A stretch of 64,000 nt of DNA, from the NCBI GenBank assembly GCA_001771185.1, contig METB01000001.1:631200-695199 (forward strand). Reading direction: 5' to 3'. The first letter of the stretch is position 1. Every line of letters begins with the position of its first letter. This document shows, in pieces, positions 1,464-63,421 of the stretch. The stretch is from a candidate division Kazan bacterium RIFCSPHIGHO2_01_FULL_44_14. GTDB lineage: Bacteria; Patescibacteriota; Kazan-3B-28. Under the pieces are notes generated by a model. That model saw nothing but the letters and a program-made list of their open reading frames with translations, was not told the DNA's origin and did not search any database. The translations under genes and the position numbers were made by a program.

Positions 1464-4400
1464 ATGAAGTTTAAGCCGATTGATTCACGAGTGGACTTCG
1501 CCAAACAAGAGGAAGAAGTTCTTGAATTTTGGGATAAGGAAAAAATCTTTACCAAAAGTTTAGAGCAACGGCATGGCGGAAAGCGCTATGTCTTTTTTGA
1601 AGGCCCGCCCACAGCCAACGCTAAGCCGGGTTTGCATCACGCATTAGCACGTTATTTTAAGGATTTGTTTCCGCGGTACAAAACCATGCGAGGGTATTTA
1701 GTGGAGCGTAAGGCCGGTTGGGATACGCATGGGTTGCCAGTTGAAATTGCAGTGGAAAAAGAATTGAAGCTAACTTCTAAACCCGATATTGAAAAGTATG
1801 GGGTGGCTAAATTTAATGCCAAGGCCAAGGAAAGTGTGTGGCAACATAAAGAGGATTGGGAAAAATTCACCAAGCGGAGTGGTTTTTGGTTGGATATGGA
1901 GCACCCGTATATTACCTATGAACCAGATTATATTGAGTCGGTTTGGTGGATTTTGAAGCAGGCCTGGGATAAAGGACTGATTTATCAAGGTCATCGAGTG
2001 GTGCCACGGTGTCCGAGATGCGGAACGGCGTTATCAAGTCATGAAGTGGCACAGGGATACAGGGAGGTGAGCGAAACTTCACTTTATGTGAAGTTTCGAG
2101 TTAAAGAAGCAGGTAGCCCCTCCCAACTACGCCAAGGCTTCGATGGACAGGCGGTACCTCGGGGTACCAGTAAAAATACATTTTTACTAGCATGGACGAC
2201 GACACCGTGGACACTACCTGGCAATGTGGCATTGGCAATAGGAAATGAAATTTCCTATTGCAAGTTAAAAGTGACTCAACGGAGTCATCCTGAGCGAAGC
2301 GATAGCGTAGTCGAAGGATCTAGCAACCAGATTCCTCGACATGCTCGGAATGACAATACAGAGTACCTGATTTTGGCGGAGGAGTTGATTGAGAAAGTTT
2401 TTGGTAAAGAGAAAGTTGAAATTGTTGATAGATTTCAAGGGAAGGATTTGGTTGGATTCGAGTATGAACCACTATTCCCAGGAGCGGTACCAGACAATAC
2501 ACCAAATTATCAAAATGCGTTTAAGGTTTATCCAGCCGGTTTTGTAACTACGGATGAAGGGACTGGCGTGGTGCATACGGCGGTGATGTATGGTGAGGAC
2601 GACTATCAACTAGGCGAAAAAGTTGGGTTACCCAAGTTCCATACTGTGCTTCCAGACGGCACTTTTGGCCCAACTGTAGGAGAATGGGCAGGGAAGTTTG
2701 TGAAGGACTCTGAAGTTGAGAAAGGAATTATTGAGTATCTCCGGGAAAATCAGTCATTATTTAAAGAAGAAAAGTTTACGCATGATTATCCGTTCTGTTG
2801 GCGGTGCGAAACACCATTGTTGTATTACGCGGCCGAGAGTTGGTTTATTGCGATGTCTAAATTACGCGACCAATTAATTAAAAACAACGATGCGGTTGAA
2901 TGGACTCCATCTCATATTAAAGATGGTCGGTTTGGTGAATGGCTCCGAGAAGTGAAGGACTGGGGGATTTCTCGCGAGCGATACTGGGGAACCCCTTTGC
3001 CATTTTGGATGCCTGTCCGTACCACTGACGGCGAAGCCGCTGTGGGCGGAAGTGATGATAAACCGATGTGTGTAGGTTCGTTTTCGGAACTTAATAAACT
3101 AGCCAAAGACCCAAGTTTGGTTGGAACCAATTTTGATCCGCATAAACCATTTGTGGACGAAATCGTATTAGTGAAAGATGGTAAGGAATTCAAAAGGGTT
3201 CCGGAAGTTTTGGATGTCTGGTTTGATTCTGGTGCGATGCCCTTTGCCCAATGGCATTATCCAATCGAGAACGCTGAAAAAATTGATCGGGGCGAGGCCT
3301 TCCCAGCTGATTTTATTTCTGAAGCAATCGATCAAACCCGGGGCTGGTTTTATACCATGTTGGCGATTTCGACTATGTTGGGTAAGCCAGCGCCATATAA
3401 GCAGGTGATTTGTTTGGGACATATTCTGGATAAACATGGCAAGAAGATGAGTAAGTCCAAAGGGAACACAGTCGACCCGTGGACGATTTTTGATAAATAC
3501 GGTTCAGATGCATTGAGATGGTATCTGTACACCATTAATCAACCAGGGTTGTCCAAGAACTTTGACGAAGAAGGAGTGAAAACAGTGGTTAGAAGGTTAA
3601 TGCTAACCATCTGGAACACTTATTCATTTTTTGTAACTTATGCCAACATTGACGGATTTATTCCTGACTTGAATGTGAAAGTTAAACCAACGGAAGTGTT
3701 GGATAAATGGATTTGGACTCGTCACGACCAATTGATTGAACATGTAACATATCATTTGGACCGATACGAGCCAATGGCGGCCTGCCAAGCGATAGAAAGT
3801 TTTGTTGATGATTTGTCGAATTGGTATATTCGCAGAAACCGTCGTCGGTTTTGGCGGACAGGTGATGCTAGTCAGACCAAAGACAAACAACAGGCCTATG
3901 TCGTGCTTCATGCCGTGCTGAAGGATTTAACTAAACTAATGGCCCCGTTTATGCCGTTTTTGAGTGAAGCAATTTATGCCAATCTAAAAACAGACGAGGA
4001 ACCAATCTCGGTCCACCTGACGACTTGGCCAAGGGCGGGCAAGGTGGATGAGTTAATCTTGGAAGAAATGAGTCAAGTCCGGCACTGGGTGGAATTGGGA
4101 CTAAATCAAAGAGAAGTGGCCGGAATTAAGGTGCGTCAACCATTGGCGAGGTTTTCAATTAAAGCCAAACAGTTAGATGGTGATTTGATTGCTATTTTGT
4201 GCGAGGAATTAAATGTAAAAGAAATTGTGTTAGGGGATAACATTGAACAGTTGGATACGAAGTTGACTGATAAACTACTGGAAGAGGGATTGGTGCGGGA
4301 ATTAGTTCGGGCAATTCAGGTCTTACGCAAAGAGTCCGGATTTGAAATTCAGGACCACATTTCGATTACTTGGCAAACCGAAAGTAAAGCACTTCGTCAA

Positions 4401-4529: not shown

Positions 4530-5038
4530 TGAATCGTTTTGTTTCAAATCTCATCTTAGGTTTGTTTGTGGTGGCGTTGGTAATTGTTTATGGTGTTAGT
4601 AAACAGCCGGCAGTTTTTTCGTTGGGTCATTTACTAACGAATCAAATAGTACAGCCACCAGTTGACCAGCAAATGGCAATTCGGTTGCCGGGGGGGCAGG
4701 TGATTCAAGCACGGGTAGTAGACACCCCCGAAGCCAGGGCCCAGGGATTGTCGGGAGTGGAATCCGTTCCAGCCGATACCGGAATGTTGTTTGTGTTTCA
4801 AGATGATGGGACACAGGGAATTTGGATGAAGGGGATGAAAATCCCGTTGGATATATTGTGGCTTGATGGTCAGGGACAGGTGGTACATATTGTTCAAAAT
4901 GCTCCAATTCCAGATGATGAACAGACCGTACTTCCTATATATGAAAGCAACCAACCAGCCAGATATGTGCTGGAATTGGCGGCGGGAACAGTAGAAGCGA
5001 CTGGTTTAGAGGCAGGGCAGGTGGTCGGATTATCTTGA
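4529..5038 (+). CDS. DUF192 family protein
   Basis: GMLFVFQDDG...IWMKGMKIPLDILWLD matches the DUF192 pattern. Its start overlaps the ileS stop. Confidence 0.6.
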   Translation: MNRFVSNLILGLFVVALVIVYGVSKQPAVFSLGHLLTNQIVQPPVDQQMAIRLPGGQVIQARVVDTPEARAQGLSGVESVPADTGMLFVFQDDGTQGIWMKGMKIPLDILWLDGQGQVVHIVQNAPIPDDEQTVLPIYESNQPARYVLELAAGTVEATGLEAGQVVGLS

Positions 5039-5423: not shown

Positions 5424-5446
5424 AAGTGATAAGTGAAAAGTTGTGG

Positions 5447-5474
5447 TGTCCCCTCGGTCCCTCGGGGTATCAAT
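5447..5474. repeat. G-family CTCGG-box 28-mer (gtcccctcggtccctcggggtatcaatc)
   Basis: Its reverse complement recurs at 13583-13610. Related boxes lie at 23608, 23890, 30781 and 31140. Confidence 0.6.
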
Positions 5475-5515: not shown

Positions 5516-5716
5516 TCCTACCGGCCCTTCAGTGAAGGGTTGTTCTGAATTGAGCTAAATCATTGCCGCGAAGCCACTGTTTAAGGAGCGAAGCGACGAG
5601 TTTGGCTGTAAGCGGAAAAATGATTTAGCCAATGAATAAGCCCGGAACTGTCCGGGCCACGGCTTTGGTTACTTTCACCAAGAGGAAAGTAACGGCGGGT
5701 TGAGCGTCGCCTAAAC
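5516..5716 (-). repeat. D-family structured 3'-end element, copy 1 (minus strand, downstream of lepB)
   Basis: Its reverse complement carries the H1 hairpin gttactttcctcttggtgaaagtaac, then ...ccgggcttattcattgg, the 10-bp helix ctaaatcatt/aatgatttag, and ctcaattcagaacaacccttcactgaagggccgg. Confidence 0.75.
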
Positions 5717-10187: not shown

Positions 10188-10262
10188 CAATTAAATCACA
10201 AATCACAAATCACAAACAAAAAGTTAAATTACAAATTTCAAATAACAAATAACAAAAAAGTT

Positions 10263-13395: not shown

Positions 13396-13582
13396 CGGCT
13401 TGCCAGGACGGTGGCGCTAAAATGGTGCCCCACTCACAAATGGCTAGCCAATAGAGCAAAATCCTCCTTTCTGGATTTAACCACAAACTCCTCGGGCTAA
13501 AGCCCTCGTCAAACATGTTCATCCAGACCAGAGGATTTTGCTATTGGCGAACGCAATTTGCTCGATGGGTCCTAACAGAATT

Positions 13583-13610
13583 GATACCCCGAGGGACCGA
13601 GGGGATACCT
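13583..13610. repeat. G-family CTCGG-box 28-mer (reverse complement of 5447-5474)
   Basis: The sequence is gataccccgagggaccgaggggatacc. Confidence 0.6.
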
Positions 13611-18268: not shown

Positions 18269-19606
18269 ATGGATTTAAAGCAATTAGAGGACAATCTGTA
18301 CACTTGGCAGTCAGCCCTGGAGAGACGAGGGGCGGAAGTGGATTTGAACAAAGTATTAGAGGCGCATAAGTGTTATCTTGAGTTATTGCAAAAGTCCGAG
18401 GAATTGAGAGCTAGACGCAACACGGCGGCTCGGGCCCAAGATATTGAAGCAGGTAAGCCCTACTCCGCTGAAGCTACGAAGGGTCTGCGACAGGCAAAGG
18501 GTTTATTGAAAGAAATGGAAGACGAGTTGGCTACAGCTAAAGCAGAGTTGGACGAATTAGTGGCCGGAATTCCCAATCTACCTAGTGGTGATATTCCTGA
18601 CGGAGGGGAAGAAAATAATAAGGTCTTGGGAGTGGTGGGGAAACCGCGAACCATCGATAATCCCAAAGACCACATTGAATTAGGTGAAGGCCTGGGGATT
18701 TTGGATATTGAGCGAGGGACCAAGGTCTCGGGCGCTCGGTTTTATTATTTGAAAAATCAGGCAGTCGAATTGGAATTTGCGATTGTTAGATGGTTGATGG
18801 ACTTATTGAAAGAGAAAGGATTTGAACTGCTGATAGGTCCAGAACTTTTAAATGAAAAGGCGATGTTGGCAGGCGGATATTTGGGTAAAGCTGTGGACGA
18901 AGTTTACAAAACTCAAGATGAATTATATTTGATTGGTACGGCCGAACAAAGTATTTTGGCTTATCATTTGGATGAAATTGTTCCCGTTCCCAAACGATAT
19001 GCTAGTTTTTCAACTTGCTTTCGGAGAGAAGCTGGTAGTTACGGAAAAGATGTGAAAGGAATTATTCGAACGCATCAGTTCGATAAAATCGAAATGTTTT
19101 CGTTTGTGGCGCCGAGTATGTCGGCTCGGGAACATGAATTTTTAGTATCAATTCAAGAAGAAATTTTGCAAGGACTGGAAATTCCATATCAGAAAGTGCT
19201 ACTGGCGGCGGGGGACTTGAGTATGGCTTCGGCCAAGACGATTGATTTGGAAAGTTGGTTGCCGTCACAGAATCGGCATCGGGAAACCCATAGTTGTAGT
19301 AATTGCACTGATTGGCAGGCGAGACGGGCGAAGATTCGTTACAGGGAGCAAGGTAGTCCCTCCCAACTACGCCAAGGCTTCGATGGGCAGGCGGTTCCTC
19401 GGGATAACATAAAAAATGACTTCCTGACGAATGGAGGGGGTACTACCGGTAACAAGCCAGAGTTGGTTCATACGCTAAACGGTACAGCGGTAGCGATTGG
19501 GCGTATACTTGTGGCTATACTGGAAAACCATCAACAGATAGATGGGAGCGTGATTGTCCCTAAAGTTCTGCATCCGTATTTGAGTTTTAAGGAAATTAGA
19601 CCATGA
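18269..19606 (+). CDS. serS: Seryl-tRNA synthetase
   Basis: It has the N-terminal coiled-coil arm and class II motifs (FRREAGS..., [22 protein letters not shown]). An in-frame repeat insertion lies at 19352-19403. Confidence 0.9.
19352..19403. repeat. B-family repeat copy inserted in-frame in serS (encodes [18 protein letters not shown])
   Basis: It is near-identical to 2111-2164 in ileS. Confidence 0.8.
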
Positions 19607-22352: not shown

Positions 22353-22469
22353 TCACCTAAATTTCTAATTTCTAATTTCGAATCAAATTCCAATGACTGA
22401 ATGTTTCAAAATTAAGACATTAGGTCATTCACTCAAAATTCAAAATTCATCATTCAAAATTATATTTAT
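22353..22469. repeat. C-family hairpin element, copy 1, flanked by an 18-bp direct repeat of a palindrome (cctcttaagataagaggg at 22335-22352 and 22470-22487)
   Basis: Core caatgactgaatgtttcaaaattaagacattaggtcattc, with atttctaatttcgaatcaa on the 5' side and aaaattcaaaattcatcattcaaaatt on the 3' side. Confidence 0.75.
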
Positions 22470-23216: not shown

Positions 23217-23296
23217 AATGATAAATTAAAAATTAAAAATGGGGGAGGAGAGTGATGAGTCGGGGAGTGGGTTGGGGAGTGGGGCTTGTTTCTTTC

Positions 23297-23453
23297 GTCA
23301 TCCTGAGCGAGGTGTAAGCCGAGTCGAAGGATCTAGGCGTAGCCGTCTATAAGAAATTCGCTATCGCCCCAACGGGGGCCCTTTGGGGCTAGATTCTTCA
23401 TCCCGGCAAGCCGGGATTCAGAATGACAGAAGGTAGGCGGGGGCCGGAATGAC
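23297..23453. repeat. A-family mini-element(s) (gtcatcctgagcgag ... gaatgac ... ggaatgac)
   Basis: It carries the family termini and core. Confidence 0.7.
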
Positions 23454-23924
23454 AAAAAGAGAGACAGTTGGGATGGTAGGTGGCGCCTCTCGGTTCCTCA
23501 GGATGATGATTCGCAGGCGTTAGGAGGAGAGATGATGGGTGATTTTGTGGTGATTACACCACATTTTTGGGTAAAGTCAAGTTTTATCAGATTAGAAGGT
23601 GGCCCCTCGGTACTTCGGGGCAATAAAGGGGATGGATGTACAATAAATCCACTCTGGGAGCCAGTTTTTGCTTGACAAAACTATTTAATTATAATAGAGT
23701 AGCGGTAGGTGAGCCGAATGGCTCCATTGCACTCTACAATTAGTTGACTAAAAATGAGTATCGAGTTGCGAGTATCGAGTTGCGAGTCGGAACTGATGAT
23801 AAGACAGACGGTCAACGAAGAGATGCGAAAATTTACAATTCATTAAAATAAAATATCAGCACGGGGGGAACGGGCTGATTTTTGTTTTGATGGGTGTCCC
23901 TCGGTTCTTTTTGTTGTCATTCCC

Positions 23925-24068
23925 GCGCCCGTCCGCAACGATTCGCCAGCCCGTAGTATATACAACATTTCTGGCGGGCGTAGCATTTCGGGCAGGTAGG
24001 CGGGAATCTAGAAAAGAAAACAGATTTTTATGTTTTGTTCTGGATTCCGGCTCGTGGGCCGGAATGAC
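23925..24068. repeat. A-family mini-element (gtcattcccgcg ... ggccggaatgac)
   Basis: It carries the family termini and the ctggattccgg core. Confidence 0.7.
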
Positions 24069-24353
24069 GATAAGAGAAACTTGGGTTGTAATTGAGCCGC
24101 AGAATTCTGGTGCTGTAGAGGTTTAGGGTCTGGATATTTTTGGATTAACCTTTAAGAATATCAATTTAAGGACACGATACCTTCTTAGCACTGGAATCCT
24201 GCGGCTCATACGAATTTCTCTTCGAGCCAAAGGATTATTTTGTTTTCAAAAACCAACTGTAAAATACGCGAAAGCGGATTACGGTTGGTCTTCTACTCAT
24301 CGGCTGGCGCGGTTGATGGGTTGGGCCTACGAGGGTCCGAAGGAGGTAGAGAA

Positions 24354-28963: not shown

Positions 28964-29557
28964 GTTGACTGGCCGATGGGGATTGTTATACACTTAGGCG
29001 TTCTTTGTTGTAGTTTACCAATAAGTTTTAGGGGGTGTGTGATGGGAGTAATCGCGATTATTTTTCGGCATGGCGTCGTTTCAAACGACCCGGCCATAGA
29101 ATTTGAGTGGACCAACTCTCTCGTTTCGAATCGGTCGTTTCATAGTGACACGATAGATGGTTTGCCGACCATTGCTCGAAAGGAGCTACGGAAAATGTTG
29201 CAATCCCCAGAGTTTGTGCGATATCGAACCGAGTTAAGGGGTGGTGGCGATGAGCTAATTATTCAATTTGAAAATCTCCCAGCTGGTTCAACTTTTCTGT
29301 TGGGATTTTTCCGTCAATTTTTTGGTAAGGGATTCAACGAGTTCTTTTCCGCAAGAGGGATTTGTGGGAAGCGGACCAATTCACCAATCAGTAGAATTAT
29401 AGTAACAGCAATAAATCGGACGGATAAGTCCTGTCAACTCACGGTCAAGTCCTCCAGAGAGAATTCTAACCTGACCTTTCATCAGATATCGGAGGAATTA
29501 TTAAAACTTCTGGATGAATCTGAAAATTTTCGCTGGGAGCATGAACATCAAACTTGA
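28961..29557 (+). CDS. Hypothetical protein
   Basis: It is an open frame with no recognised family. The start is uncertain. Confidence 0.35.
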   Translation: MVDWPMGIVIHLGVLCCSLPISFRGCVMGVIAIIFRHGVVSNDPAIEFEWTNSLVSNRSFHSDTIDGLPTIARKELRKMLQSPEFVRYRTELRGGGDELIIQFENLPAGSTFLLGFFRQFFGKGFNEFFSARGICGKRTNSPISRIIVTAINRTDKSCQLTVKSSRENSNLTFHQISEELLKLLDESENFRWEHEHQT

Positions 29558-29599
29558 GGCGTCAAACCTGACGCCTCTTTTTATTGGTATAATGCGATT

Positions 29600-30713
29600 A
29601 TGGCAGAACAGACAGTCAAAGAACGGTTCGAATCTATCCGCCTGCAATTTTCCAAATTGCAGGACTATCTTTGACCCAGATAAAGTTAAATCCAAAGTAG
29701 AAGAATTGACGGCGGAAATGAGTGCGCCGGATTTTTGGAAACAAGATCACCAAGTATCGGCCAAGAAAGCCGAAGAATTGGATTTGCAGACCAAGATTTT
29801 AACCGCCGAGAAGGATACTGAAGATGCTTTGGCCAGGGTGGGTTTGAAATTAAACGAAGACAATTACAGTCCGAACGACAAGGAAATGGAAGCGGACTTA
29901 GACAGTGCGATGCAAAAGATATCTTGGCTAGAGTCGCAGACGCTTTTTTCTGGGCCCTATGACGAGAAAGATGCTTATTTATTTTTTCATGTGGGAGCGG
30001 GCGGGGTGGATGCGGCCGATTGGAATGAAATGCTTTTAAATATGTATTTACAATATGCTAAGCGAAAAGGTTGGAAGACGGAGATATTACATCGGACGGA
30101 CAATGAAGAAGCCGGAATCAAAAATGCGACGGTGAAAATTTCTGGGGTGAGAGCGTATGGTTATTTGAAAGCCGAGGCTGGAGTGCATCGATTAGTTCGG
30201 CAATCGCCATTCAATGCCCAAAATCTGCGTCAGACATCGTTTGCGTTGGTGGAGGTATTGCCAGATATGGGAGATGTGGATGTGGGAATTAAAGAAGATG
30301 ATCTAAAAATAGAGACCTTTAAGTCGTCTGGTCACGGGGGGCAAAGTGTGAACACGACTGATTCGGCTGTGCGAATTATTCATATTCCGACTGGTCTGAC
30401 AGCGGTATCGCAAAATGAACGGTCACAGATGCAAAACCGAGCGACAGCAATGCAGGTGTTAAAGAATAAGGTTTACATTCAAGAACAAGCCGAGCGGGAT
30501 ACGGCAGAGCGGAAGATGAAAGCGGCGACTGCATCGGGTGATTTCGGACATCAAGTTAGAAGTTATGTGATTCATCCGTATCAGCAAGTGAAAGATCATC
30601 GGAGTGATTTTACTGAACCGAGAACTGACAAGATTATGAAAGATGGGGATTTGGATGAAATTATTTTAAGTGTTTTGGTAAATCAGAGAGACAACGATAT
30701 CGATAATAAATAA
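29600..30713 (+). CDS. prfB: Peptide chain release factor 2, requiring a programmed +1 frameshift (frame 0 29600-29671, then +1 frame 29673-30713)
   Basis: Frame 0 reads MAEQTVKERFESIRLQFSKLQDYL and stops at the classical CTT TGA C site, with SD-like AGGA upstream. The +1 frame continues DPDKV... through the SPF motif (SGHGGQ) and GGQ. Confidence 0.9.
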
Positions 30714-30757
30714 AATCCCTCCCCTCGGCAAGCTCGGGACGATGCTTATCCTCGGGA
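30714..30757. repeat. E-family repeat (ccctcggcaagctcgggacgatgcttatcctcgggata)
   Basis: A near-identical copy is inserted in-frame in murD at 56808-56851. Confidence 0.7.
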
Positions 30758-30864
30758 TAACAGATTATCAATAAATAGTGTTTCCCCGAGGAACCGAGGG
30801 GGGCCGAATACTAGAAAATTTAATATGTTGCCCCGGCGAACGGAGGGGATACCTTGGATGGCTT

Positions 30865-31134
30865 ATGGGGGATTTTTCTTATGAATGGTGGGTATATTTA
30901 GTGAGATGTCACGATAAAAGTTATTACTGTGGCATTACTACCGATTTGTATAGACGAATAGATCAGCATAATACGGGCAAGGGTGCAAAATATACGGCTG
31001 GTCGTTACCCGGTGGAATTGTTATGGAGTCGTGAATTTCCCGGCGAAGGTGAAGCCAGAAGTTTTGAACATCGTATCAAAAACTGGGGTAGAATGAAGAA
31101 GGAGAAATTGATAAGAGGAGAGATATACACATAA
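30865..31134 (+). CDS. GIY-YIG nuclease superfamily protein (UPF0213-like)
   Basis: WWVYLVRCHDKSYYCGITTDLYRRIDQHN ... EHRIKNW matches the GIY-YIG fold. It is flanked by 21-bp inverted repeats at 30781-30801 and 31140-31160. Confidence 0.7.
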   Translation: MGDFSYEWWVYLVRCHDKSYYCGITTDLYRRIDQHNTGKGAKYTAGRYPVELLWSREFPGEGEARSFEHRIKNWGRMKKEKLIRGEIYT

Positions 31135-31170
31135 GGTAGCCCCTCGGTACCTCGGGGAAACAATTATTCC

Positions 31171-32343: not shown

Positions 32344-33264
32344 TTGTTGGATATGTTAATTTATTTAAATAGAATTTTGCGATCGGCGATGTCGGGTTTT
32401 AAACGCAACGGCTGGTTGTCGTTGGTGGCGGTATTTATTATGACTCAGGCCTTATTATTAATCAGTATTTTTGCGTCGTTAAATTTAGTCATTGGGGCTT
32501 CAATCCAGGCAGTAAATGAACGAATTGATGTGGCGATATTCTTTAAAGAAACAGTCAATCAGAGCGAAGCAATAACATTAAAAAGTCAGGTGGAACAAAT
32601 TGATGGGGTGAAACAAGTGATTTATGTTTCTTCTCAAGATGCATTGGCTAAGTTTTTGGCTGATCATCGCAATCGGGACTCGATTTTGGGAGTGGTGTCT
32701 AAAGATGAAAATTTCCTGCCAGCTAGTTTAGAGGTAAAAGTGACTGACCCGTATCTGATTGAGGGGATAGTTGGCCAAATTACTAAAGGTGAAGGAGGTG
32801 AGTTGATTTCACAGACCAGCTTGGAAGATAACCAAAAATTGATTGAACAGTTGCGCAATTTTGGCGGTTTTGTCCAACGATCTAGTTTACTGCTGGCATT
32901 AGCATTAATTATTATTGCGTTGTTGATTATTTTCAATACAATTCGGATTACCATTTTTACGCGAAGAGAAGAAATCGAAATCATGAAATTGGTAGGGGCA
33001 ACCGATTGGTATATCCGTTGGCCATTTATTATTGAAGGAATGCTATACGGCATAATTGCTACTGCCTTGTCGTTGGTTTTGCTGTATATCGGTTATTTGA
33101 CACTAGCCAAGCCGATGGTGGCGAATTATCTAATATCGACTACTGACAGTCCAGTGTTTACGGTTGGTTTTTTTGCTTTTTTGGCAATTTTGCAATTGGT
33201 AGTTGGGCTGGTGGTGGGCGGAGTTAGCAGTTATTGGGCTACGCGTAAACATCTTCATGTATAA
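32344..33264 (+). CDS. ftsX: Cell division permease FtsX
   Basis: Four TM segments, a periplasmic loop, and a position immediately after ftsE. Confidence 0.85.
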   Translation: MLDMLIYLNRILRSAMSGFKRNGWLSLVAVFIMTQALLLISIFASLNLVIGASIQAVNERIDVAIFFKETVNQSEAITLKSQVEQIDGVKQVIYVSSQDALAKFLADHRNRDSILGVVSKDENFLPASLEVKVTDPYLIEGIVGQITKGEGGELISQTSLEDNQKLIEQLRNFGGFVQRSSLLLALALIIIALLIIFNTIRITIFTRREEIEIMKLVGATDWYIRWPFIIEGMLYGIIATALSLVLLYIGYLTLAKPMVANYLISTTDSPVFTVGFFAFLAILQLVVGLVVGGVSSYWATRKHLHV

Positions 33265-33387
33265 AATAATTACAAATTAAAAATTAAAAATGACAAATGA
33301 AAAATAATAATCAAAGCCCAAACTGCTTAGAAATTGGACATTAGAAATTATTTAGAAATTAGAACTTAGATATTAGAAATTTATTGT

Positions 33388-34562: not shown

Positions 34563-34642
34563 GAATTTCTAATTTCTAATTTCGAATCAAATCCCAATGA
34601 CTGAATGCTCCAAAATTAAGACATTAGGTAATTCATTCGACC
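34563..34642. repeat. C-family hairpin element, copy 2
   Basis: atttctaatttcgaatcaaatcccaatgactgaatgctccaaaattaagacattaggtaattc. Confidence 0.7.
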
Positions 34643-34671
34643 CATTCCCGCTTTGTCTTATATTTTTTTGT

Positions 34672-43769: not shown

Positions 43770-43797
43770 CTTTTCTGACCGTATAACGACGGTCAAT

Positions 43798-43975
43798 CCG
43801 TTGCTACTTTTGTCTTGCCAAAAGTAGCCAAAAGCGTGGCCCGGACAGTTCCGGGTCTATTCATTAGTTAAACTGCTGGGCGCTTTCGCCGAACTCGCCT
43901 TCGGCTCAAACAACGGCTTCGCCCCAAGCAATTTAACTTAATTCAGAACGACCCTTCACTGACGGGCCGGATGAT
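43798..43975 (+). repeat. D-family structured 3'-end element, copy 3 (after the ftsL-like gene)
   Basis: H1 gctacttttg-tcttgcc-aaaagtagc; ccgggtctattcatt; helix agttaaa...tttaact; cttaattcagaacgacccttcactgacgggccgg. Confidence 0.75.
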
Positions 43976-46262: not shown

Positions 46263-46516
46263 GTCCAAGCGCAAGCTGGCGCTTGACCCAGCACAGACGA
46301 GCGCCACATCGCGCTCGACCGATGGGCACTTTGGCTTGTCAAAGTGCCATAAATCGCTTTCGCAGTCGCTCTCGTTATTCATCACAACTAATTCCCTTAC
46401 TGCTCTCGCCAAACTCCCCCTCGACTACGCTCGGGGTCAAACAGTTGGCTTCGCAACGGGAATTAGTTGGATTCAGGACATTCGAGCTCCAATGCTCGGT
46501 TAAGAAGGAATTGTCT
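46263..46516 (+). repeat. D-family structured 3'-end element, copy 4 (after ftsI; diverged subtype)
   Basis: tccaagcgcaagc...gcttgacc; H1 ggcactttg-gcttgt-caaagtgcc; ttattcatcac; cagttggcttcgcaacggg; aattagttggattcaggacattcgagctccaatgctcgg. Confidence 0.75.
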
Positions 46517-48971: not shown

Positions 48972-49195
48972 AAATGAGCGCAGGGTGGCGCTCAACCCAC
49001 CGTTACTTTCCTCTTGGCGAAAGTAACCAAAGCCGTCTCCGCAGTCGCCCTCTTTATTCATCACAACTAATTCCCTTACTGCTCTCGCCAAACTTGCCCC
49101 GACCTAAAGGTCGGGTCTTCGAACAGTTGGCTTCGCAACGGAAATTAGTTGGATTCAGAACACTCGGGCTCCAATGCTCGATTAAGAGGGGATAG
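48972..49195 (+). repeat. D-family structured 3'-end element, copy 5 (after mraY; same subtype as copy 4)
   Basis: H1 gttactttcc-tcttggc-gaaagtaac. The remaining ~130 nt are about 85 % identical to copy 4. Confidence 0.75.
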
Positions 49196-49250
49196 TAACT
49201 ACTCGATGGGTCCCAATAAGATTGATACCCCGAATCCGCCAACTGGCGGA

Positions 49251-49340
49251 CTAATTTCGAATCAAACTCGAATGACTGAATGCTTCAAAATTAAGACATT
49301 AAGATATTTACTCAAAATTCAAAATTTGTCATTCAAAATT
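49251..49340. repeat. C-family hairpin element, copy 4
   Basis: ctaatttcgaatcaaactcgaatgactgaatgcttcaaaattaagacattaag...caaaatttgtcattcaaaatt. Confidence 0.7.
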
Positions 49341-49438
49341 ACTTATACTCCAATATTCAGTATCTTCTCCCCCCTAAGATAAGGGGAGGTAGGGTGGGGT
49401 CATATGGGTGCAAATTGGCTCTGGGGGAGGGTTTTGGC

Positions 49439-52620: not shown

Positions 52621-52723
52621 AAATTTCTAATTTCGAATTTCTAATCAAATCTAAATGACTGAATGTCTCAAAATTAAGATATTAGGTCATTCATTTAAAA
52701 TTCAAAATTTGTCATTCAAAATT
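52621..52723. repeat. C-family hairpin element, copy 5 (after the RT)
   Basis: aaatttctaatttcgaatttctaatcaaatctaaatgactgaatgtctcaaaattaagatattaggtcattc... Confidence 0.7.
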
Positions 52724-52848
52724 ACTTGCCAGGATACCATCACTTTTAACTTTTAACTGACTCCACGATTTCCCTTGCCTGGGAGCGGGTTTTATGGTAT
52801 GACAGGGGTATCTTGCAGTATGTTCTTTAACAGGGAGGTTTTAAAACG

Positions 52849-55635: not shown

Positions 55636-55669
55636 GATAGTTAAAAGTGGTGACAGATAGCTCTTTGTC

Positions 55670-55743
55670 GTCATTCTGGCGTCACCCCGGCCAGCCGGGA
55701 TTCCCCAGCATGACAGAAATAAAAAACGTTCTCCAGAATGACG
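55670..55743. repeat. A-family mini-element (gtcattctggc ... ccagaatgacg)
   Basis: It carries the family termini. Confidence 0.65.
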
Positions 55744-56400: not shown

Positions 56401-57825
56401 ATGGTCAAAAATCGGTTAACCGGCAAACGAGTGGCGGTGATTGGTCTGGGACGCGAGGGGATTGAACTGGTGCGGTTCTTGTATAAACAAGGGGCTCTAA
56501 TTACGGTCTTGGATTGGTCATCGGCTGGTAAATTGGGAGCGCAGTATCGAGAGGCGAAGGCCTTGGGAGCGGAATTTAGATTGGGCAAAAAATATCTGGT
56601 CGGGCTAAACGATTTTGAGATAGTGTTTCGGAGTCCAGGTGTAGCGTTGCAAATCCCGGAAATTAAACGGGCGATTAGAGCCGGAGTGGAAATTTCTAGC
56701 ACAATTAAGTTGTTCCTTGAATTGTCGCCAGCCAAAACGATTGGGGTGACCGGGACTAAGGGCAAGTCAACCACGGCCAGTTTGATTTATCATTTGTTGA
56801 AGGGTGGCCCCTTCCCTCGGCAAACTCGGGACCCTGCTCATCCTCGGAATAGCAAGAAAAAATCGAAAGTGTTTTTGGCGGGTAATATTGGCCATTCGCC
56901 AATTCCATTGCTTAGTAAACTTAAATCGAGCGATACAGTAGTACTGGAACTATCGAGTTTTCAATTAGAGGACTTAACCAAGGGTCCTGATATTGCCGTG
57001 TTGTTAAATGTGGTGCCAGAACACTTGGATCGGCACAAAACCCTGGCTAAATATTTGGCCGCCAAACAGAACCTTTATCTTCATCAAGGTAAACAGGATT
57101 GGTTGGTTACTAGTCGGGATTTCTTGCCGACTCGAGAAGCAATTAAGCAGACACGAGGGAAGGTATTGCCAATCTCGACTCGCCAGATTCTGCGGAAGGG
57201 AGTTTATATCAGTAAAGGTGAACTGGTTTATCGACACTGGCGAACGGGTCGAAGGCAGAATATTTCATCAGTTGCCGATTTGAAATTGGTTGGCAGTCAC
57301 AATTTGCAAAATATCCTGCCAGCCGTCGCTGTGGCACTGATTCTTAATGTTCCGATTTCGACTATCGTAAAAAAACTGCGGAGTTTTAAGCCGTTGAAGC
57401 ATCGGATTGAATTGGTGCGTCAAATTGGCGGGACATTATATATAAATGATTCGTTAGGGACTACGCCAGAAGCGGCCACAGCAGCGATTGGAGCATTTTT
57501 GGAAATGTCCAAGGCCTTGATTATTGGCGGAGTATACAAAGGCGGTAATTTGATCGGTCTGGCTAGGGCGATAGCCACTGGGAATGTCCGAGAGGTAATT
57601 TTGATTGGAAGTTCCGCTAAAAAAATTCAGACCGTATTAAAACAATATGCTCCCAAGGTACTGGTAACATTGGCCAAAACTTTACCGCAGGCAGTGCGTC
57701 AGGGAAGGATAGCGGTGCGGGGTCGGGGAGCGGTGATGTTAACACCGGCTTGCGCCAGTTTTGATATGTTTAAGGATGCTTACGATCGGGGCGAACAATT
57801 CAGGAAAATAGTGAATGCACTCTAG
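56401..57825 (+). CDS. murD: UDP-N-acetylmuramoylalanine--D-glutamate ligase
   Basis: It has the Rossmann N-terminus VIGLGREG and the Mur ligase P-loop GVTGTKGKSTT. An in-frame E-family repeat insertion at 56808-56851 encodes GGPFPRQTRDPAHPRN. Confidence 0.85.
   Translation: MVKNRLTGKRVAVIGLGREGIELVRFLYKQGALITVLDWSSAGKLGAQYREAKALGAEFRLGKKYLVGLNDFEIVFRSPGVALQIPEIKRAIRAGVEISSTIKLFLELSPAKTIGVTGTKGKSTTASLIYHLLKGGPFPRQTRDPAHPRNSKKKSKVFLAGNIGHSPIPLLSKLKSSDTVVLELSSFQLEDLTKGPDIAVLLNVVPEHLDRHKTLAKYLAAKQNLYLHQGKQDWLVTSRDFLPTREAIKQTRGKVLPISTRQILRKGVYISKGELVYRHWRTGRRQNISSVADLKLVGSHNLQNILPAVAVALILNVPISTIVKKLRSFKPLKHRIELVRQIGGTLYINDSLGTTPEAATAAIGAFLEMSKALIIGGVYKGGNLIGLARAIATGNVREVILIGSSAKKIQTVLKQYAPKVLVTLAKTLPQAVRQGRIAVRGRGAVMLTPACASFDMFKDAYDRGEQFRKIVNAL
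56808..56851. repeat. E-family repeat inserted in-frame in murD
   Basis: ccccttccctcggcaaactcgggaccctgctcatcctcggaata, versus the intergenic copy at 30714-30757. Confidence 0.75.
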
Positions 57826-57960
57826 TGCAAAATAACAAATAACAAATAACAAATAACAAACAAGCACCAAATAACAATAATAAAAACAAAAAAGGTTTGA
57901 AACATTGGGATTTGGGATTTGTTTGAAATTTGGAGATTGTAATTTGGGATTTAATTTTTT

Positions 57961-62458: not shown

Positions 62459-62537
62459 ATTTCTAATTTTTAATTTCGAATTTCGAATCAAATCCCAATG
62501 ACTGAATGTTTCAAAATTAAGATATTAGGTCATTGAT
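62459..62537. repeat. C-family hairpin element, copy 6 (after murC)
   Basis: atttctaatttttaatttcgaatttcgaatcaaatcccaatgactgaatgtttcaaaattaagatattaggtcattg. Confidence 0.7.
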
Positions 62538-62545
62538 TCAAAGTA

Positions 62546-63421
62546 ATGTTAAAGAGGGGGTTTTCTACTAATTGGTTTACTAAAAAAAAGCGGTCAGCAC
62601 CGTCTCGGGTGGTGTTGTTTAACCAGCAACAAAAATATAATCAGCGAATGCGCGGTAATCTTTTGCGCAAAACCAGCGTCCAATTAACGGCGGCGAAACT
62701 AAGTCGACTGCGAACTCCTGCTAGGTGGTGGTCAAAGGTTCTGGTGGTGTTGGGACTGGGCTTGGTGGGATACCTGCTGTTTGGGACTAATTTATTTGTG
62801 TTGGATACTTTGCGGATTACTGGTACACACTTAACCGAACCCGATGCGATTCAGGCCGTATTGTTCCCGCGGGGGTTTACCAAAATGAATGCATTAACTT
62901 GGTGGGAAAGCCGAGCCAAACACAAAGTCGAATCATTGCCTCAAGTTCAGTTGGTTCACTTTGTGAAAAATTTTATTTCTGACACGTTGACAGTCGAAGT
63001 AACTGAACAGCAAATGGCGGTGGTGTGGCAGACGGCCGGGGAAAAGTTCTTGATTAATCGTCACGGAGTGGCATATGACCGAGCGGAAGAGGGGAACCCA
63101 CTGCTGACAATCGAAGATCTGAAAAATATTCCGATTAGTTTGAATCAGCGGATTGTAACATCGGACTTTATTGATTTTGTGACTAGTTTTGCGGCTAATC
63201 TTCCGCGCAAAACCAATTTGGTGATTCGGCGAATTACCGTGCCAGAGACCACTTTTGAAGTAGAAATGGAAACTAGCGAGGGTTGGAGAATTATTTTAGA
63301 TACGACTGGTAGTTATGACGAACAGCTCAATAATTTGGTCAGAGTATTACAGGAGATGGGGGATAGAAAGCCCAGAGAATATGTGGATTTGAGGGTGGGG
63401 AAGAAAGTGTTTTATAAATGA
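62546..63421 (+). CDS. ftsQ: Cell division protein FtsQ-like (POTRA domain)
   Basis: It has a basic N-terminus, a single TM, and a POTRA-like region, and it sits at the dcw position after murC. The start is uncertain. Confidence 0.65.
   Translation: MLKRGFSTNWFTKKKRSAPSRVVLFNQQQKYNQRMRGNLLRKTSVQLTAAKLSRLRTPARWWSKVLVVLGLGLVGYLLFGTNLFVLDTLRITGTHLTEPDAIQAVLFPRGFTKMNALTWWESRAKHKVESLPQVQLVHFVKNFISDTLTVEVTEQQMAVVWQTAGEKFLINRHGVAYDRAEEGNPLLTIEDLKNIPISLNQRIVTSDFIDFVTSFAANLPRKTNLVIRRITVPETTFEVEMETSEGWRIILDTTGSYDEQLNNLVRVLQEMGDRKPREYVDLRVGKKVFYK

What the first reader, a model, noticed from the sequence alone, without database searches (positions are those of the whole stretch)
56808..56851. Intergenic repeat (E family) also present in-frame inside murD
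ccctcggcaaRctcgggacNNtgctYatcctcggRata occurs intergenically after prfB (30714-30757) and inside murD (56808-56851). In murD it adds GGPFPRQTRDPAHPRN between the P-loop region and the rest of the central domain. This is a third essential gene hosting a mobile mini-element in frame.
Basis: seen in the sequence. Interest (0 to 1): 0.6.

Follow-up and report, generated by a model that had tools for sequence, protein, structure and literature searches.

The report
In-frame repeat insert in murD
A 51-base copy of a short GC-rich genomic repeat sits in frame inside the essential cell-wall gene murD of a tiny-genome CPR (Kazan) bacterium. It adds a floppy 17-residue surface loop, the same repeat family brackets the only small GIY-YIG nuclease gene found in this window, and related bacteria carry other versions of it at exactly the same spot.

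Summary
The 38-nt pattern occurs twice in the window: 30722-30759 (intergenic, after prfB) and 56814-56851 (inside murD). None is expected by chance.

In murD it is a 51-nt in-frame insert (56809-56859) coding 17 residues, PFPRQTRDPAHPRNSKK. The closest insert-free relatives (73% identical), solved MurD structures and 100 of 113 scored homologues lack it. AlphaFold places it in a low-confidence coil between helix 122-133 and strand 157-161. Its substitutions ignore codon position, so the peptide is unconstrained.

"E family" is one composite form of a wider family. The basic unit is about 28 nt: GGTAGC-CCCTCGG-N2-4-CTCGGGG-WAWCA. I verified 11 copies in 64 kb, three of them in frame (ileS, serS, murD). 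Four cluster around a single small GIY-YIG gene (30865-31134), which they flank as inverted repeats.

That layout matches the published Ssn nuclease/SRM repeat system. However, the units fail the SRM pattern and do not fold as hairpins.

Five Kazan lineages carry different forms at the identical murD site, each with an insert-free nearest relative.

Verdict: a real repeat-derived insert of the Rickettsia-palindromic-element kind, probably tied to an Ssn-like nuclease. It is a new variant of a known kind.

The parts
56401..57825 (+). murD (UDP-N-acetylmuramoylalanine--D-glutamate ligase), 474 aa, the host gene
   Evidence: Pfam MurD-like_N, Mur_ligase_M and Mur_ligase_C. PDB MurD 3lk7 at E = 4.7e-53. 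AlphaFold pLDDT 93.2 and Foldseek top hits all MurD. 100% identical to P0001, from candidate division Kazan bacterium RIFCSPHIGHO..., on a 699,981-nt contig.
56809..56859 (+). 51-nt in-frame insert (PFPRQTRDPAHPRNSKK, residues 137-153), the E-type long form of the repeat. Similarity to the repeat runs 56803-56856, including the GGTGGC tag-like codons.
   Evidence: Pattern match at 56814-56851. Alignment gap in insert-free orthologues and PDB MurDs. Empty-site DNA in L001 and L007. GC 0.57 against 0.46 for the rest of the gene. Coil with pLDDT about 50-74.
30715..30763 (+). Intergenic E-type long form, 2 nt after the prfB stop. It is the left arm of a strong hairpin (about 30719-30803) formed with the inverted stub that follows.
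   Evidence: RNA fold of 30705-30815 gives -41.1 kcal/mol, z = -3.67. The orthologous site in L155 carries only the 25-nt stub form ATCCCTCGGTTCTTCGGGATAACAG.
30779..30805 (-). Short unit ('stub', GGCCCCCCTCGGTTCCTCGGGGAAACA), inverted, upstream of the GIY-YIG gene
30826..30853 (-). Second, degenerate inverted unit (GGTATCCCCTCCGTTCGCCGGGGCAACA) upstream of the GIY-YIG gene
   Evidence: Conserved in L155.
30865..31134 (+). Single-domain GIY-YIG nuclease gene (89 aa), the only one in the window and the candidate partner of the repeats
   Evidence: Pfam PF01541 at E = 1.6e-20. PDB UPF0213 proteins 1zg2 (4e-19) and 1ywl (1e-11). Only one hit in the six-frame search of the window. The prfB-GIY-ftsE gene order is conserved in L155, L156 and L157.
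31135..31162 (+). Short unit (GGTAGCCCCTCGGTACCTCGGGGAAACA) directly after the GIY-YIG stop. It forms an inverted pair with 30779-30805.
   Evidence: Largely deleted in L155. L156 has four tandem units here.
2112..2169 (+). Long form with a different interior, in frame in ileS ([19 protein letters not shown])
   Evidence: (repeat family D17).
19352..19409 (+). The same long form, in frame in serS ([19 protein letters not shown])
   Evidence: PDB SerRS 6x94 has a gap of about 30 residues opposite query residues 365-394.
5445..5472 (+). Intergenic short unit after rplU
13582..13609 (-). Intergenic short unit between greA and the class II aaRS gene
23598..23625 (+). Intergenic short unit (GGTGGCCCCTCGGTACTTCGGGGCAATA)
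46415..46442 (+). Intergenic unit of the pan-bacterial form (CCCCCTCGACTACGCTCGGGGTCAAACA)

Best explanation
Shown:
- Bases 56809-56859 are a lineage-specific, in-frame insertion of a short GC-rich interspersed repeat into murD.
- The repeat is built from a unit of about 28 nt: GGTAGC-CCCTCGG-N2-4-CTCGGGG-WAWCA.
- Long forms (E in murD and after prfB; another type in ileS and serS) keep both termini and differ only in the interior.
- Short and long forms replace each other at orthologous sites in close relatives.
- The units bracket, as inverted repeats, the only small single-domain GIY-YIG nuclease gene in the window (30865-31134). Four of the 11 verified copies in the window cluster there.

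Inferred:
- This nuclease is the trans-acting partner that binds and cuts the units, as Ssn nucleases do with their SRM/NTS repeats and RAYTs do with REPs.
- Nuclease-triggered repair, recombination or gene conversion spreads, resizes and removes copies.
- In essential genes, only copies that keep the reading frame, contain no stop codon and land in a tolerant surface loop can survive. The MurD loop between the P-loop helix (122-133) and strand 157-161 is such a place.
- The insert is translated into a disordered 17-residue loop that does nothing for MurD.
For: The repeat is real: 2 exact pattern matches against 0 expected. The shared 3' terminus CCTCGGGRTAMCA gives 7 matches against 0.27 expected. 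Short units give 5 matches against 0.12 in shuffles.

The insert is lineage-specific:
- P0001, P0002 and P0003 have it. P0004 and P0005 (73% identical) do not, and their DNA shows a clean empty site: GGTGGC|CAGCGGTGG|GTA.
- PDB MurDs lack it.
- 100 of 113 homologues keep the baseline spacing.

The insert sits in a tolerant loop: coil 134-156 with pLDDT about 50-74 (below 50 at 141-144), inside a model with mean pLDDT 93.

The peptide is unconstrained. Between the window and L004, all 8 substitutions in the insert are nonsynonymous. Changes at codon positions 1+2 are 8/34 in the insert against 85/914 in the rest of the gene (p = 0.013). Third-position changes are 0/17 against 192/457 (p = 1.7e-4).

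Short and long forms interconvert. After prfB, the window has the 49-nt E form where L155 has the 25-nt stub. The unit after the GIY gene is present in the window, mostly deleted in L155 and fourfold in L156.

The same murD site carries a pure stub (P0033, GSPSVPRG), a stub with a CGAG centre (P0017), a collapsed form (P0014), the E form (P0001-3) and an ileS/serS-like form (P0009). Each of these has an insert-free nearest relative.

Link to the GIY-YIG gene:
- Inverted units flank the gene in the window and in L156.
- The same motif class (CCCT(T)CGNC-N4-GCTCRGGR) flanks or overlaps the 3' end of small GIY-YIG genes in unrelated bacteria retrieved by protein homology alone (L158, Sphingomonas L162). 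The background rate is 1 hit per 78 kb.
- It does the same in 3-5 of the loci retrieved through the motif (L031, L108, L123, L116, L135).

Published precedent: Ssn single-domain GIY-YIG nucleases are flanked by, and cut next to, their own dispersed repeats (PMC11893778).
Against: - No biochemical or genetic link between this GIY-YIG protein and the units exists. The association rests on position only, in a handful of lineages.
- Ten of 13 independent, homology-selected GIY-YIG loci have no such motif. These are the yazA/yhbQ-type operon genes plus the Cupriavidus locus L163 and one prophage gene.
- The units do not match the published SRM search pattern.
- Single units fold no better than shuffled sequence, with z about 0. 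This is unlike NTS, SRM or REP hairpins.
- The closest solved relatives of the protein are UPF0213 proteins, not demonstrably the Ssn clade cd10448.
- No target-site duplication or other transposition footprint is visible at the murD site.
- A genome-wide copy count could not be made. The source genome was not returned by either collection scan.
- Translation of the insert is assumed, not shown.
Confidence: 0.7

Rival explanations
1. One ancient insertion with turnover. A unit entered this murD site once, in the ancestor of the Kazan clade. The present variety (stub, E form, ileS/serS-like form, collapsed form) arose by gene conversion from other genomic copies that share the same termini. Insert-free alleles arose by precise loss or by homologous replacement with empty alleles from relatives.
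For: - All five murD variants share the same flanking termini and the identical position.
- Between the window and L004, a low-divergence tract (nt 361-450 of the gene) covers the insert plus about 48 nt of upstream flank. The rest of the gene has pS of 0.6. This suggests recent recombination across this spot.
- L005 is a mosaic, with divergence from the window rising through nt ~300-540, a zone that spans the insert.
- Stub-to-long conversion is seen at an orthologous intergenic site.
Against: - On the MurD tree, every insert-bearing sequence has an insert-free nearest relative (84%, 84%, 74% and 73% identity).
- All insert-free sequences, including outgroups, have exactly the baseline spacing. 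A single origin therefore needs at least six perfectly precise losses.
- Unrelated repeat types also occupy this loop in P0090 and P0115. That points to a permissive sink hit repeatedly.
Confidence: 0.3
2. The copy has a nucleic-acid-level function where it sits. It may be kept in murD (and in ileS and serS) because the DNA motif is a target of the nuclease. In that role it would modulate recombination or transformation around essential genes, as proposed for NTS repeats in Neisseria. Alternatively it may act on the mRNA.
For: - The insert's DNA is far more conserved than neutral sites: 8/51 differences against 42% third-position (pS 0.60 synonymous-site) divergence elsewhere, with 0/17 third-position changes. 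The left half shows only 1 change in 24 nt.
- Ten of the 11 copies in the window have either the orientation of the neighbouring genes or form an inverted pair.
- The Ssn paper shows that NTS repeats flanking genes change transformation rates.
Against: - The low divergence extends into the flanking murD codons, which is better explained by a recent recombination tract.
- Close relatives manage without the insert.
- The insert does not fold as DNA or RNA, with z between +0.7 and +1.2.
- In Neisseria only 2% of NTS copies lie inside genes.
Confidence: 0.15
3. The 17 residues are an adaptive, protein-level addition to MurD, such as a lineage-specific interaction or regulatory loop. Under this reading, the similarity to the intergenic sequence is secondary.
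For: - The insert is kept in frame in three sequences, one of them (L004) separated from the window by dS of about 1.2.
- It is rich in Pro, Arg and Lys, as many interaction loops are.
Against: - All substitutions are nonsynonymous, and the nonsynonymous rate is three times that of the rest of the gene.
- The peptide differs completely among lineages that carry inserts at this site.
- It is absent from sister species.
- The model gives low pLDDT here.
- The same DNA occurs in non-coding spacers.
Confidence: 0.04
4. The insert never reaches the protein. It would be removed from the mRNA or bypassed by the ribosome, like the mobile bypass elements of some mitochondria or the gap in phage T4 gene 60.
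For: - It is a GC-rich insert in an AT-richer gene.
- In ileS a GGT codon occurs both before the element and near its end.
Against: - The frame is open and maintained in every carrier.
- Matching take-off and landing codons are absent in serS and murD.
- There is no stop codon or hairpin at the 5' edge.
- No intron-like RNA family was detected by Rfam.
Confidence: 0.03

Closest known systems
Rickettsia palindromic elements (RPE) and similar in-frame MITE insertions. RPEs are known to me from Ogata et al. 2000; the library holds papers that mention them (PMC1779305). For Coxiella MITEs, the title and abstract of PMC5896051 mention implications for protein evolution.
   Same: - A short interspersed repeat is found both in spacers and in frame, without stop codons, inside essential housekeeping genes of a reduced genome.
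- The insert sits on a surface loop.
- Presence and absence vary between close relatives.
- The encoded peptide is not conserved as a protein.
   Different: - RPEs are about 100-150 bp and palindromic. These elements are 15-72 nt, and single copies show no hairpin.
- The host is a CPR (Kazan) bacterium.
- Different forms of one family recur at the identical codon position in separate lineages, in murD and in serS.
Ssn nucleases with their SRM/NTS (dRS3) repeats (Chenal et al. 2025, PMC11893778)
   Same: - A single-domain GIY-YIG protein of about 90 aa is flanked on both sides by inverted copies of a 20-50-nt repeat.
- That repeat is also dispersed through the genome.
- The loop sequence CAAG and the CCC...GGG arms resemble the NTS core (TTCCCGCG-MAVG-CGGGAA).
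- The repeat-gene-repeat layout resembles an insertion sequence.
   Different: - The units fail the published SRM pattern and do not form hairpins on their own.
- The protein's nearest solved relatives are UPF0213 proteins. Membership of cd10448 is untested.
- NTS copies are rarely inside genes (2%). Here 3 of 11 window copies are in frame in essential genes.
REP/BIME sequences with RAYT (IS200/IS605-like Y1) transposases. Cited in PMC11893778; GTAG-tagged REPs are described in PMC3733652.
   Same: - A single-copy, vertically inherited nuclease gene is flanked by inverted copies of the genome's main short repeat.
- Copies cluster in arrays with alternating orientation.
- A GTAG tag sits at the 5' end of the unit (GGTAGC).
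   Different: - No Y1 transposase was seen. The flanked gene is a GIY-YIG nuclease.
- Units are not hairpins.
- REPs are extragenic by definition.

Membership tests
MurD (host gene) | Three-domain Mur ligase with P-loop GxxGKS/T and a MurD-type N-terminal domain | tested here: met
   Pfam PF21799, PF08245 and PF02875. GTKGKST is conserved. Foldseek top 33 hits are all MurD.
RPE-like in-frame repeat insertions | The same repeat occurs in spacers and in frame within ORFs, without stop codons | tested here: met
   murD, ileS and serS copies are open in frame. Intergenic copies lie at 30715, 5445, 13582, 23598 and 31135.
RPE-like in-frame repeat insertions | The insert is absent from close orthologues and lies in a surface loop | tested here: met
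   (coil 134-156, low pLDDT).
RPE-like in-frame repeat insertions | The element is itself a palindrome, a hairpin of about 100-150 bp | tested here: not met
   The elements are 15-72 nt. Single copies fold no better than shuffles as DNA or RNA, with z from -1.1 to +1.2. Only the inverted pair at about 30719-30803 folds.
Ssn / SRM system (PMC11893778) | Single-domain GIY-YIG protein of about 90-100 aa | tested here: met
   89 aa, with PF01541 as the only domain.
Ssn / SRM system (PMC11893778) | Gene flanked 5' and 3' by inverted copies of a 20-50-nt repeat that is also dispersed in the genome | tested here: met
   Units at 30779-30805(-) and 30826-30853(-) upstream, and 31135-31162(+) downstream. 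Seven more copies lie elsewhere in the window. L156 has one inverted unit upstream and four tandem units downstream.
Ssn / SRM system (PMC11893778) | The repeat fits the published SRM search pattern HGTCWYN(0-2)YYVSBRHN(0-5)WNVSBRGN(0-2)RNCYNB | tested here: not met
   No unit or GIY flank matches. The only window hits are an unrelated hairpin at 55669-55715.
Ssn / SRM system (PMC11893778) | The repeat forms a hairpin with an oriented upstream tag | tested here: inconclusive
   An oriented 5' tag (GGTAGC) is present, but there is no stable hairpin in single units.
Ssn / SRM system (PMC11893778) | The protein belongs to CDD family cd10448 | not testable with these tools
   No CDD search is available. 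The best solved relatives are UPF0213 proteins BH0048 and EF2693. The best annotated relatives include yazA/yhbQ-type genes. NCBIfam gave no hit.
Ssn / SRM system (PMC11893778) | Site-specific cleavage of single-stranded DNA next to the repeat | not testable with these tools
   Needs purified protein and oligonucleotide assays.
MITE (non-autonomous IS derivative) | Terminal inverted repeats plus a target-site duplication | tested here: not met
   Comparing filled and empty murD sites shows no duplication. The termini of single elements share only CCCC/GGGG.
REP / RAYT | Associated Y1 (IS200-like) transposase | not tested
   No systematic domain scan of all window ORFs was run. The gene flanked by the repeats is a GIY-YIG nuclease, not a Y1 transposase.

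The most novel reading that the evidence does not exclude
The roughly 28-nt unit may be the terminal or recognition repeat of a previously undescribed class of GIY-YIG mini-elements. These would be a motif-GIY-YIG-motif cassette of about 0.4 kb. In other phyla this cassette sits immediately 3' of tRNA or tmRNA genes, with a 17-20-nt duplicate of the RNA's 3' end on the far side.

In Kazan bacteria, the resident nuclease would actively and site-specifically insert, resize and precisely excise unit copies. This would include copies inside essential genes, and would explain why five lineages carry different forms at the same murD codon (and likewise in serS).

If so, a GIY-YIG (Ssn/UPF0213-like) nuclease would act as the engine of an RPE-like in-frame repeat system.
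Probability: 0.2. Interest if true: 0.85.

Novelty: new variant of a known kind. Interest (0 to 1): 0.6.

Why it matters
In-frame selfish repeats in essential genes are a textbook oddity of Rickettsia. Finding the same phenomenon in a 0.7-Mb CPR genome shows that it is a wider feature of reduced genomes: three essential genes are hit within 64 kb, and the same loops are hit repeatedly in separate lineages.

The repeats bracket a small GIY-YIG nuclease, and their core motif flanks such genes in unrelated phyla. This gives a concrete, testable candidate for the enzyme behind this kind of repeat. It also extends the newly described Ssn nuclease/repeat pairing to a motif class that the published search pattern misses.

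There is a practical consequence too. Such inserts inflate CPR protein lengths and can mislead alignments, annotation and structure prediction.

Tried and rejected
- **Genome-wide copy count.** The one metagenome scan, with an E-specific 23-mer, gave 25 loci. Only one was a murD copy (L128). Most of the rest were high-GC coding sequences sharing an LGKLGTML peptide, and the window's own copies were not returned. No census was therefore possible.
- **Rfam.** Only a tRNA was found in the window and in eight motif loci.
- **Hairpin or riboswitch-like structure in the murD copy or in single units.** None was found.
- **Literature searches.** Searches for the encoded peptide words (FDKLR), for GIY-YIG with REP, with YhbQ or with Rickettsia palindromic elements, and for CPR in-frame MITEs found nothing relevant. 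The Ssn paper surfaced only through a citation search.
- **A universal reading frame for coding copies.** This is true for the three window copies. It is rejected by L153, where murD and dnaX use other frames.
- **[quoted passage not shown]** This is rejected by the copy at 13582-13609, because the minus-strand ORF next to it is not a recognisable gene.
- **GIY-YIG as a recently mobile gene in Kazan.** This is rejected because prfB-GIY-ftsE synteny is conserved at 77-93% protein identity.
- **Universal association of the motif with GIY-YIG genes.** This is rejected. The yazA/yhbQ-type genes, the Cupriavidus locus L163 and a prophage copy lack it.
- **NCBIfam naming of the nuclease.** No hit.
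Full report
**1. The observation**

Both are on the + strand, and no match occurred in 100 dinucleotide shuffles.

The first copy starts 2 nt after the stop codon of prfB (ORF 29514-30713; PCRF and RF-1 domains). Its full extent is 30715-30763.

The second copy lies inside a bona fide murD (56401-57825). The evidence for murD is:
- Three Mur-ligase Pfam domains.
- PDB MurD hits down to E = 4.7e-53.
- An AlphaFold model with mean pLDDT 93.2, whose best structural matches are all MurD.

The window is 100% identical in MurD to a protein of "candidate division Kazan bacterium RIFCSPHIGHO..." that lies on a 699,981-nt contig. The host is therefore a CPR bacterium with a very small genome.

**2. The murD segment is an insertion**

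- HMMER alignments to solved MurDs leave a 17-residue gap opposite PFPRQTRDPAHPRNSKK.
- Among close homologues, P0002 (85% identical) and P0003 (81%) carry the segment. The next relatives, P0004 and P0005 (73%), do not, and neither does almost everything further out.
- Across 113 scored homologues, the distance from GKSTT to GNIG is 17-20 residues in 100 of them.
- DNA from the encoding contigs shows a clean empty site in L001 (AAG GGT GGC | CAG CGG TGG | GTA) and in L007. The window, L004 and L005 have 51 extra bases at that point.
- The insert is GC-richer than the gene, 0.57 against 0.46.
- In the AlphaFold model it is a coil (residues 134-156) between the helix that follows the P-loop (122-133) and strand 157-161. 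Its pLDDT is about 50-74, and below 50 at residues 141-144, while the rest of the protein is modelled with high confidence.

**3. How the insert evolves**

Between the window and L004, the rest of murD shows pS = 0.60 and pN = 0.073, which is strong purifying selection.

The insert behaves differently. It has 8 substitutions, all nonsynonymous:
- Codon positions 1+2: 8/34 in the insert against 85/914 elsewhere (p = 0.013).
- Third positions: 0/17 in the insert against 192/457 elsewhere (p = 1.7e-4).

The peptide is therefore not under protein-level constraint. Yet the DNA is less diverged than neutral sites.

The low-divergence tract (gene nt 361-450) also covers about 48 nt of upstream murD codons. 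L005 is identical to the window for nt 1-300 and P0004-like after about nt 540. I read this as recent recombination or gene conversion across the spot. DNA-level constraint on the repeat remains possible. These are low-coverage metagenome contigs, so an assembly chimera cannot be excluded for L005.

**4. What the repeat is**

The two E copies share their termini with other elements in the window. These are a 58-nt element in frame in ileS (2112-2169) and serS (19352-19409), and short "stubs" of about 28 nt with the consensus GGTAGC-CCCTCGG-N2-4-CTCGGGG-WAWCA. Stubs lie at 5445, 13582(-), 23598, 30779(-), 30826(-, degenerate), 31135 and 46415.

That makes 11 verified copies in 64 kb, against about 0.1-0.3 expected.

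Long forms keep both termini and differ in the interior. The E form looks like one and a half units.

Short and long forms replace each other at orthologous sites. After prfB, the close relative L155 has the 25-nt stub where the window has the 49-nt E form. The unit after the next gene is intact in the window, mostly deleted in L155 and fourfold in L156.

Single units do not fold better than shuffled sequence as DNA or RNA. Only the inverted pair at about 30719-30803 forms a strong hairpin, at -41 kcal/mol with z = -3.7.

**5. The same murD site in other lineages**

Five Kazan lineages carry different forms at exactly this position:
- A pure stub in P0033: GGAAGC CCCTCGG TGC CTCGGGG, translated GSPSVPRG.
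- A stub with a CGAG centre in P0017, read in another frame (SASSG).
- A collapsed form in P0014.
- The E form in P0001-3.
- A 69-nt ileS/serS-like form in P0009.

Each has an insert-free nearest relative:
- P0017 and P0007, 84% identical.
- P0033 and P0006, 84%.
- P0014 and P0018, 74%.
- P0001 and P0004/P0005, 73%.

Every insert-free sequence has the ancestral spacing.

SerRS behaves the same way. The window protein has about 30 extra residues relative to PDB SerRS. Other lineages carry GSPSANARGGK or GSPSVPRDDK at the same loop, against a baseline spacing of 9-10 residues.

Unrelated repeat-like inserts also occupy the MurD loop in P0090 and P0115.

Two explanations are possible: repeated capture by permissive loops, or a single old insertion followed by gene conversion and precise loss. 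Parsimony on the tree favours repeated gain. The recombination signal keeps the alternative alive.

**6. The candidate partner**

Four of the 11 copies lie within 450 nt of one gene, 30865-31134. It encodes an 89-aa single-domain GIY-YIG protein (Pfam PF01541). Its nearest solved relatives are UPF0213 proteins 1zg2 and 1ywl. It is the only GIY-YIG gene in the window.

Units flank it as inverted repeats, minus-strand upstream and plus-strand downstream.

The prfB-GIY-ftsE gene order is conserved in relatives whose GIY-YIG protein is 93% and 77% identical. The gene is therefore resident, while the repeats around it turn over.

The 19-nt E core CCCTCGGCAAGCTCGGGAC turned out to be widespread. These included a large Acidobacteriaceae repeat family.

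Among those loci, small GIY-YIG ORFs lie within 100 nt of the motif, or end inside it, in L031, L108 and L123. L116 and L135 look similar.

In L031, L108, L123 and the homology-selected L158, the cassette sits directly 3' of a tRNA or tmRNA gene. In L031, L123 and L158 a 17-20-nt duplicate of that RNA's 3' end lies on the far side.

Among 13 independent GIY-YIG loci chosen by protein similarity alone, three have the motif class within 250 nt: Kazan, L158 and Sphingomonas L162. The background rate is 1 hit per 78 kb. The other ten have none. They are yazA/yhbQ-type operon genes, the Cupriavidus locus L163 and one prophage gene.

**7. Comparison with what is known**

Chenal et al. 2025 (PMC11893778) describe Ssn. 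These are single-domain GIY-YIG proteins of about 94 aa (CDD cd10448). They cut single-stranded DNA next to hairpin repeats (NTS/SRM). The repeats flank the ssn gene on both sides and are dispersed in hundreds of copies. The authors liken the layout to an insertion sequence and to REP/RAYT.

The Kazan locus has the same layout and the same protein size. The unit's CCC..GG-CAAG-C..GGG core echoes the NTS core.

Three things do not fit:
- The published SRM pattern matches none of the units or GIY flanks.
- Single units are not hairpins.
- cd10448 membership could not be tested.

In Neisseria only 2% of NTS copies are inside genes.

The in-frame aspect is closest to Rickettsia palindromic elements (my own knowledge; the library holds papers that mention them). 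Those elements are longer and palindromic.

I therefore file this as working like an RPE-type in-frame repeat coupled to an Ssn-like nuclease/repeat pair. It is not a demonstrated member of either family.

**8. Mechanism and confidence**

Shown:
- The insertion is repeat-derived, lineage-specific and in frame, and lies in a disordered loop.
- The peptide is unconstrained.
- Short and long forms are polymorphic at orthologous sites.
- Units cluster around the GIY-YIG gene in inverted arrangement.
- The motif is associated with a subset of small GIY-YIG genes in other phyla.

Inferred:
- The nuclease acts on the units and drives their spread, resizing and loss through repair or recombination.
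- Selection filters coding insertions down to open-frame copies in tolerant loops.
- The insert is translated.

Confidence is about 0.9 that this is a repeat-derived neutral loop insertion. It is about 0.45 that the GIY-YIG nuclease is the engine. The combined statement gets 0.7.

**9. Verdict**

It is a new variant of a known kind, not a new category.

Its interest comes from four things: the CPR host; the density of hits in essential genes; the recurrence of different forms at the same codon in separate lineages; and a concrete nuclease candidate whose repeat class escapes the published search pattern.

Noticed in passing
window 2112-2169 (ileS) and 19352-19409 (serS): Both genes carry the same 58-nt long form of the repeat in frame ([19 protein letters not shown]...). 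SerRS has about 30 extra residues relative to PDB 6x94. Other lineages carry other unit-derived inserts (GSPSANARGGK, GSPSVPRDDK) in the same SerRS loop.
   Followed up: partly
L031 3564-4003; L108 3782-4245; L123 1103-1803; L158 4859-5279: Cassettes of about 0.4 kb, with the layout motif(-) - small GIY-YIG ORF - motif(+), sit immediately 3' of tRNA-Thr, tRNA-Gln, tmRNA and tRNA-Ser. In L031, L123 and L158 a 17-20-nt duplicate of the RNA's 3' end lies on the far side. This looks like a tRNA-targeting mini-element. The Ssn paper does not mention it.
   Followed up: partly
L008-L127 (genome-contig hits): The 19-mer CCCTCGGCAAGCTCGGGAC occurs in more than 120 loci from many phyla, usually followed by AGGC. 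About 45 hits belong to one Acidobacteriaceae repeat of about 100 nt (gattCCCTCGGCAAGCTCGGGACaggctcttc...caggatgacaa). No Rfam family matches.
   Followed up: partly
L162 (Sphingomonas parapaucimobilis plasmid) 850-1306: The GIY-YIG gene ends inside CCCTTCGACTTCGCTCAGGG, and a long palindrome of the same words lies upstream. The published SRM pattern finds nothing here.
   Followed up: partly
L153 8200-8260 (dnaX) and L030 about 4949-4967 (P-type ATPase): Units also lie in frame in the DnaX linker of a related Kazan genome. There are two adjacent copies, read in other frames (GSPSNRDDK, VAPRSLGG). A Woesebacteria heavy-metal ATPase carries one too (PSASSG).
   Followed up: no
window 55669-55715: A GC-rich hairpin between the Germane-domain gene and sodA, just upstream of murD. 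It is the only place in the window that matches the published SRM pattern, and it does so on both strands.
   Followed up: no
L005 1202-2626 (P0003): This murD is a mosaic. It is identical to the window for nt 1-300, intermediate around the insert, and identical to the insert-free P0004 type after about nt 540. It is either a natural recombinant or an assembly chimera.
   Followed up: partly
MurD homologues P0090 and P0115: Unrelated repeat-like peptides of 27-29 residues (…SPLRDDYKKARHCEGELGELAAI…, …ILNPKFQTRLAFGEPRRANSKLKILNSK…) occupy the same MurD loop in more distant CPR lineages.
   Followed up: no
window 57830-57954 and many other spacers (10193-10257, 22127-22158, 33260-33305, and others): AT-rich repeats with a 7-nt period (AAATAAC / AAATTAC / TTAGAAA) fill intergenic spacers, including the one right after murD.
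   Followed up: no
window 22359-22462, 34563-34666, 49238-49341, 52621-52724, 62464-62567; also 46341-46514 / 49020-49196 and 5624-5709 / 43787-43872: Several other families of longer intergenic repeats (80-130 nt, 72-92% identical), some in inverted orientation. The genome is unusually repeat-rich for its size.
   Followed up: no
window 23217-24239: A 1-kb spacer with no called gene. It is packed with GC-rich repeat words (for example GTCATCCTGAGCGAGGTGTAAGCCGAGTCGAAGGATC and CATCCCGGCAAGCCGGGATTCAGAATGACA, which resembles the Neisseria NTS core) plus one stub. Rfam finds no RNA there.
   Followed up: no
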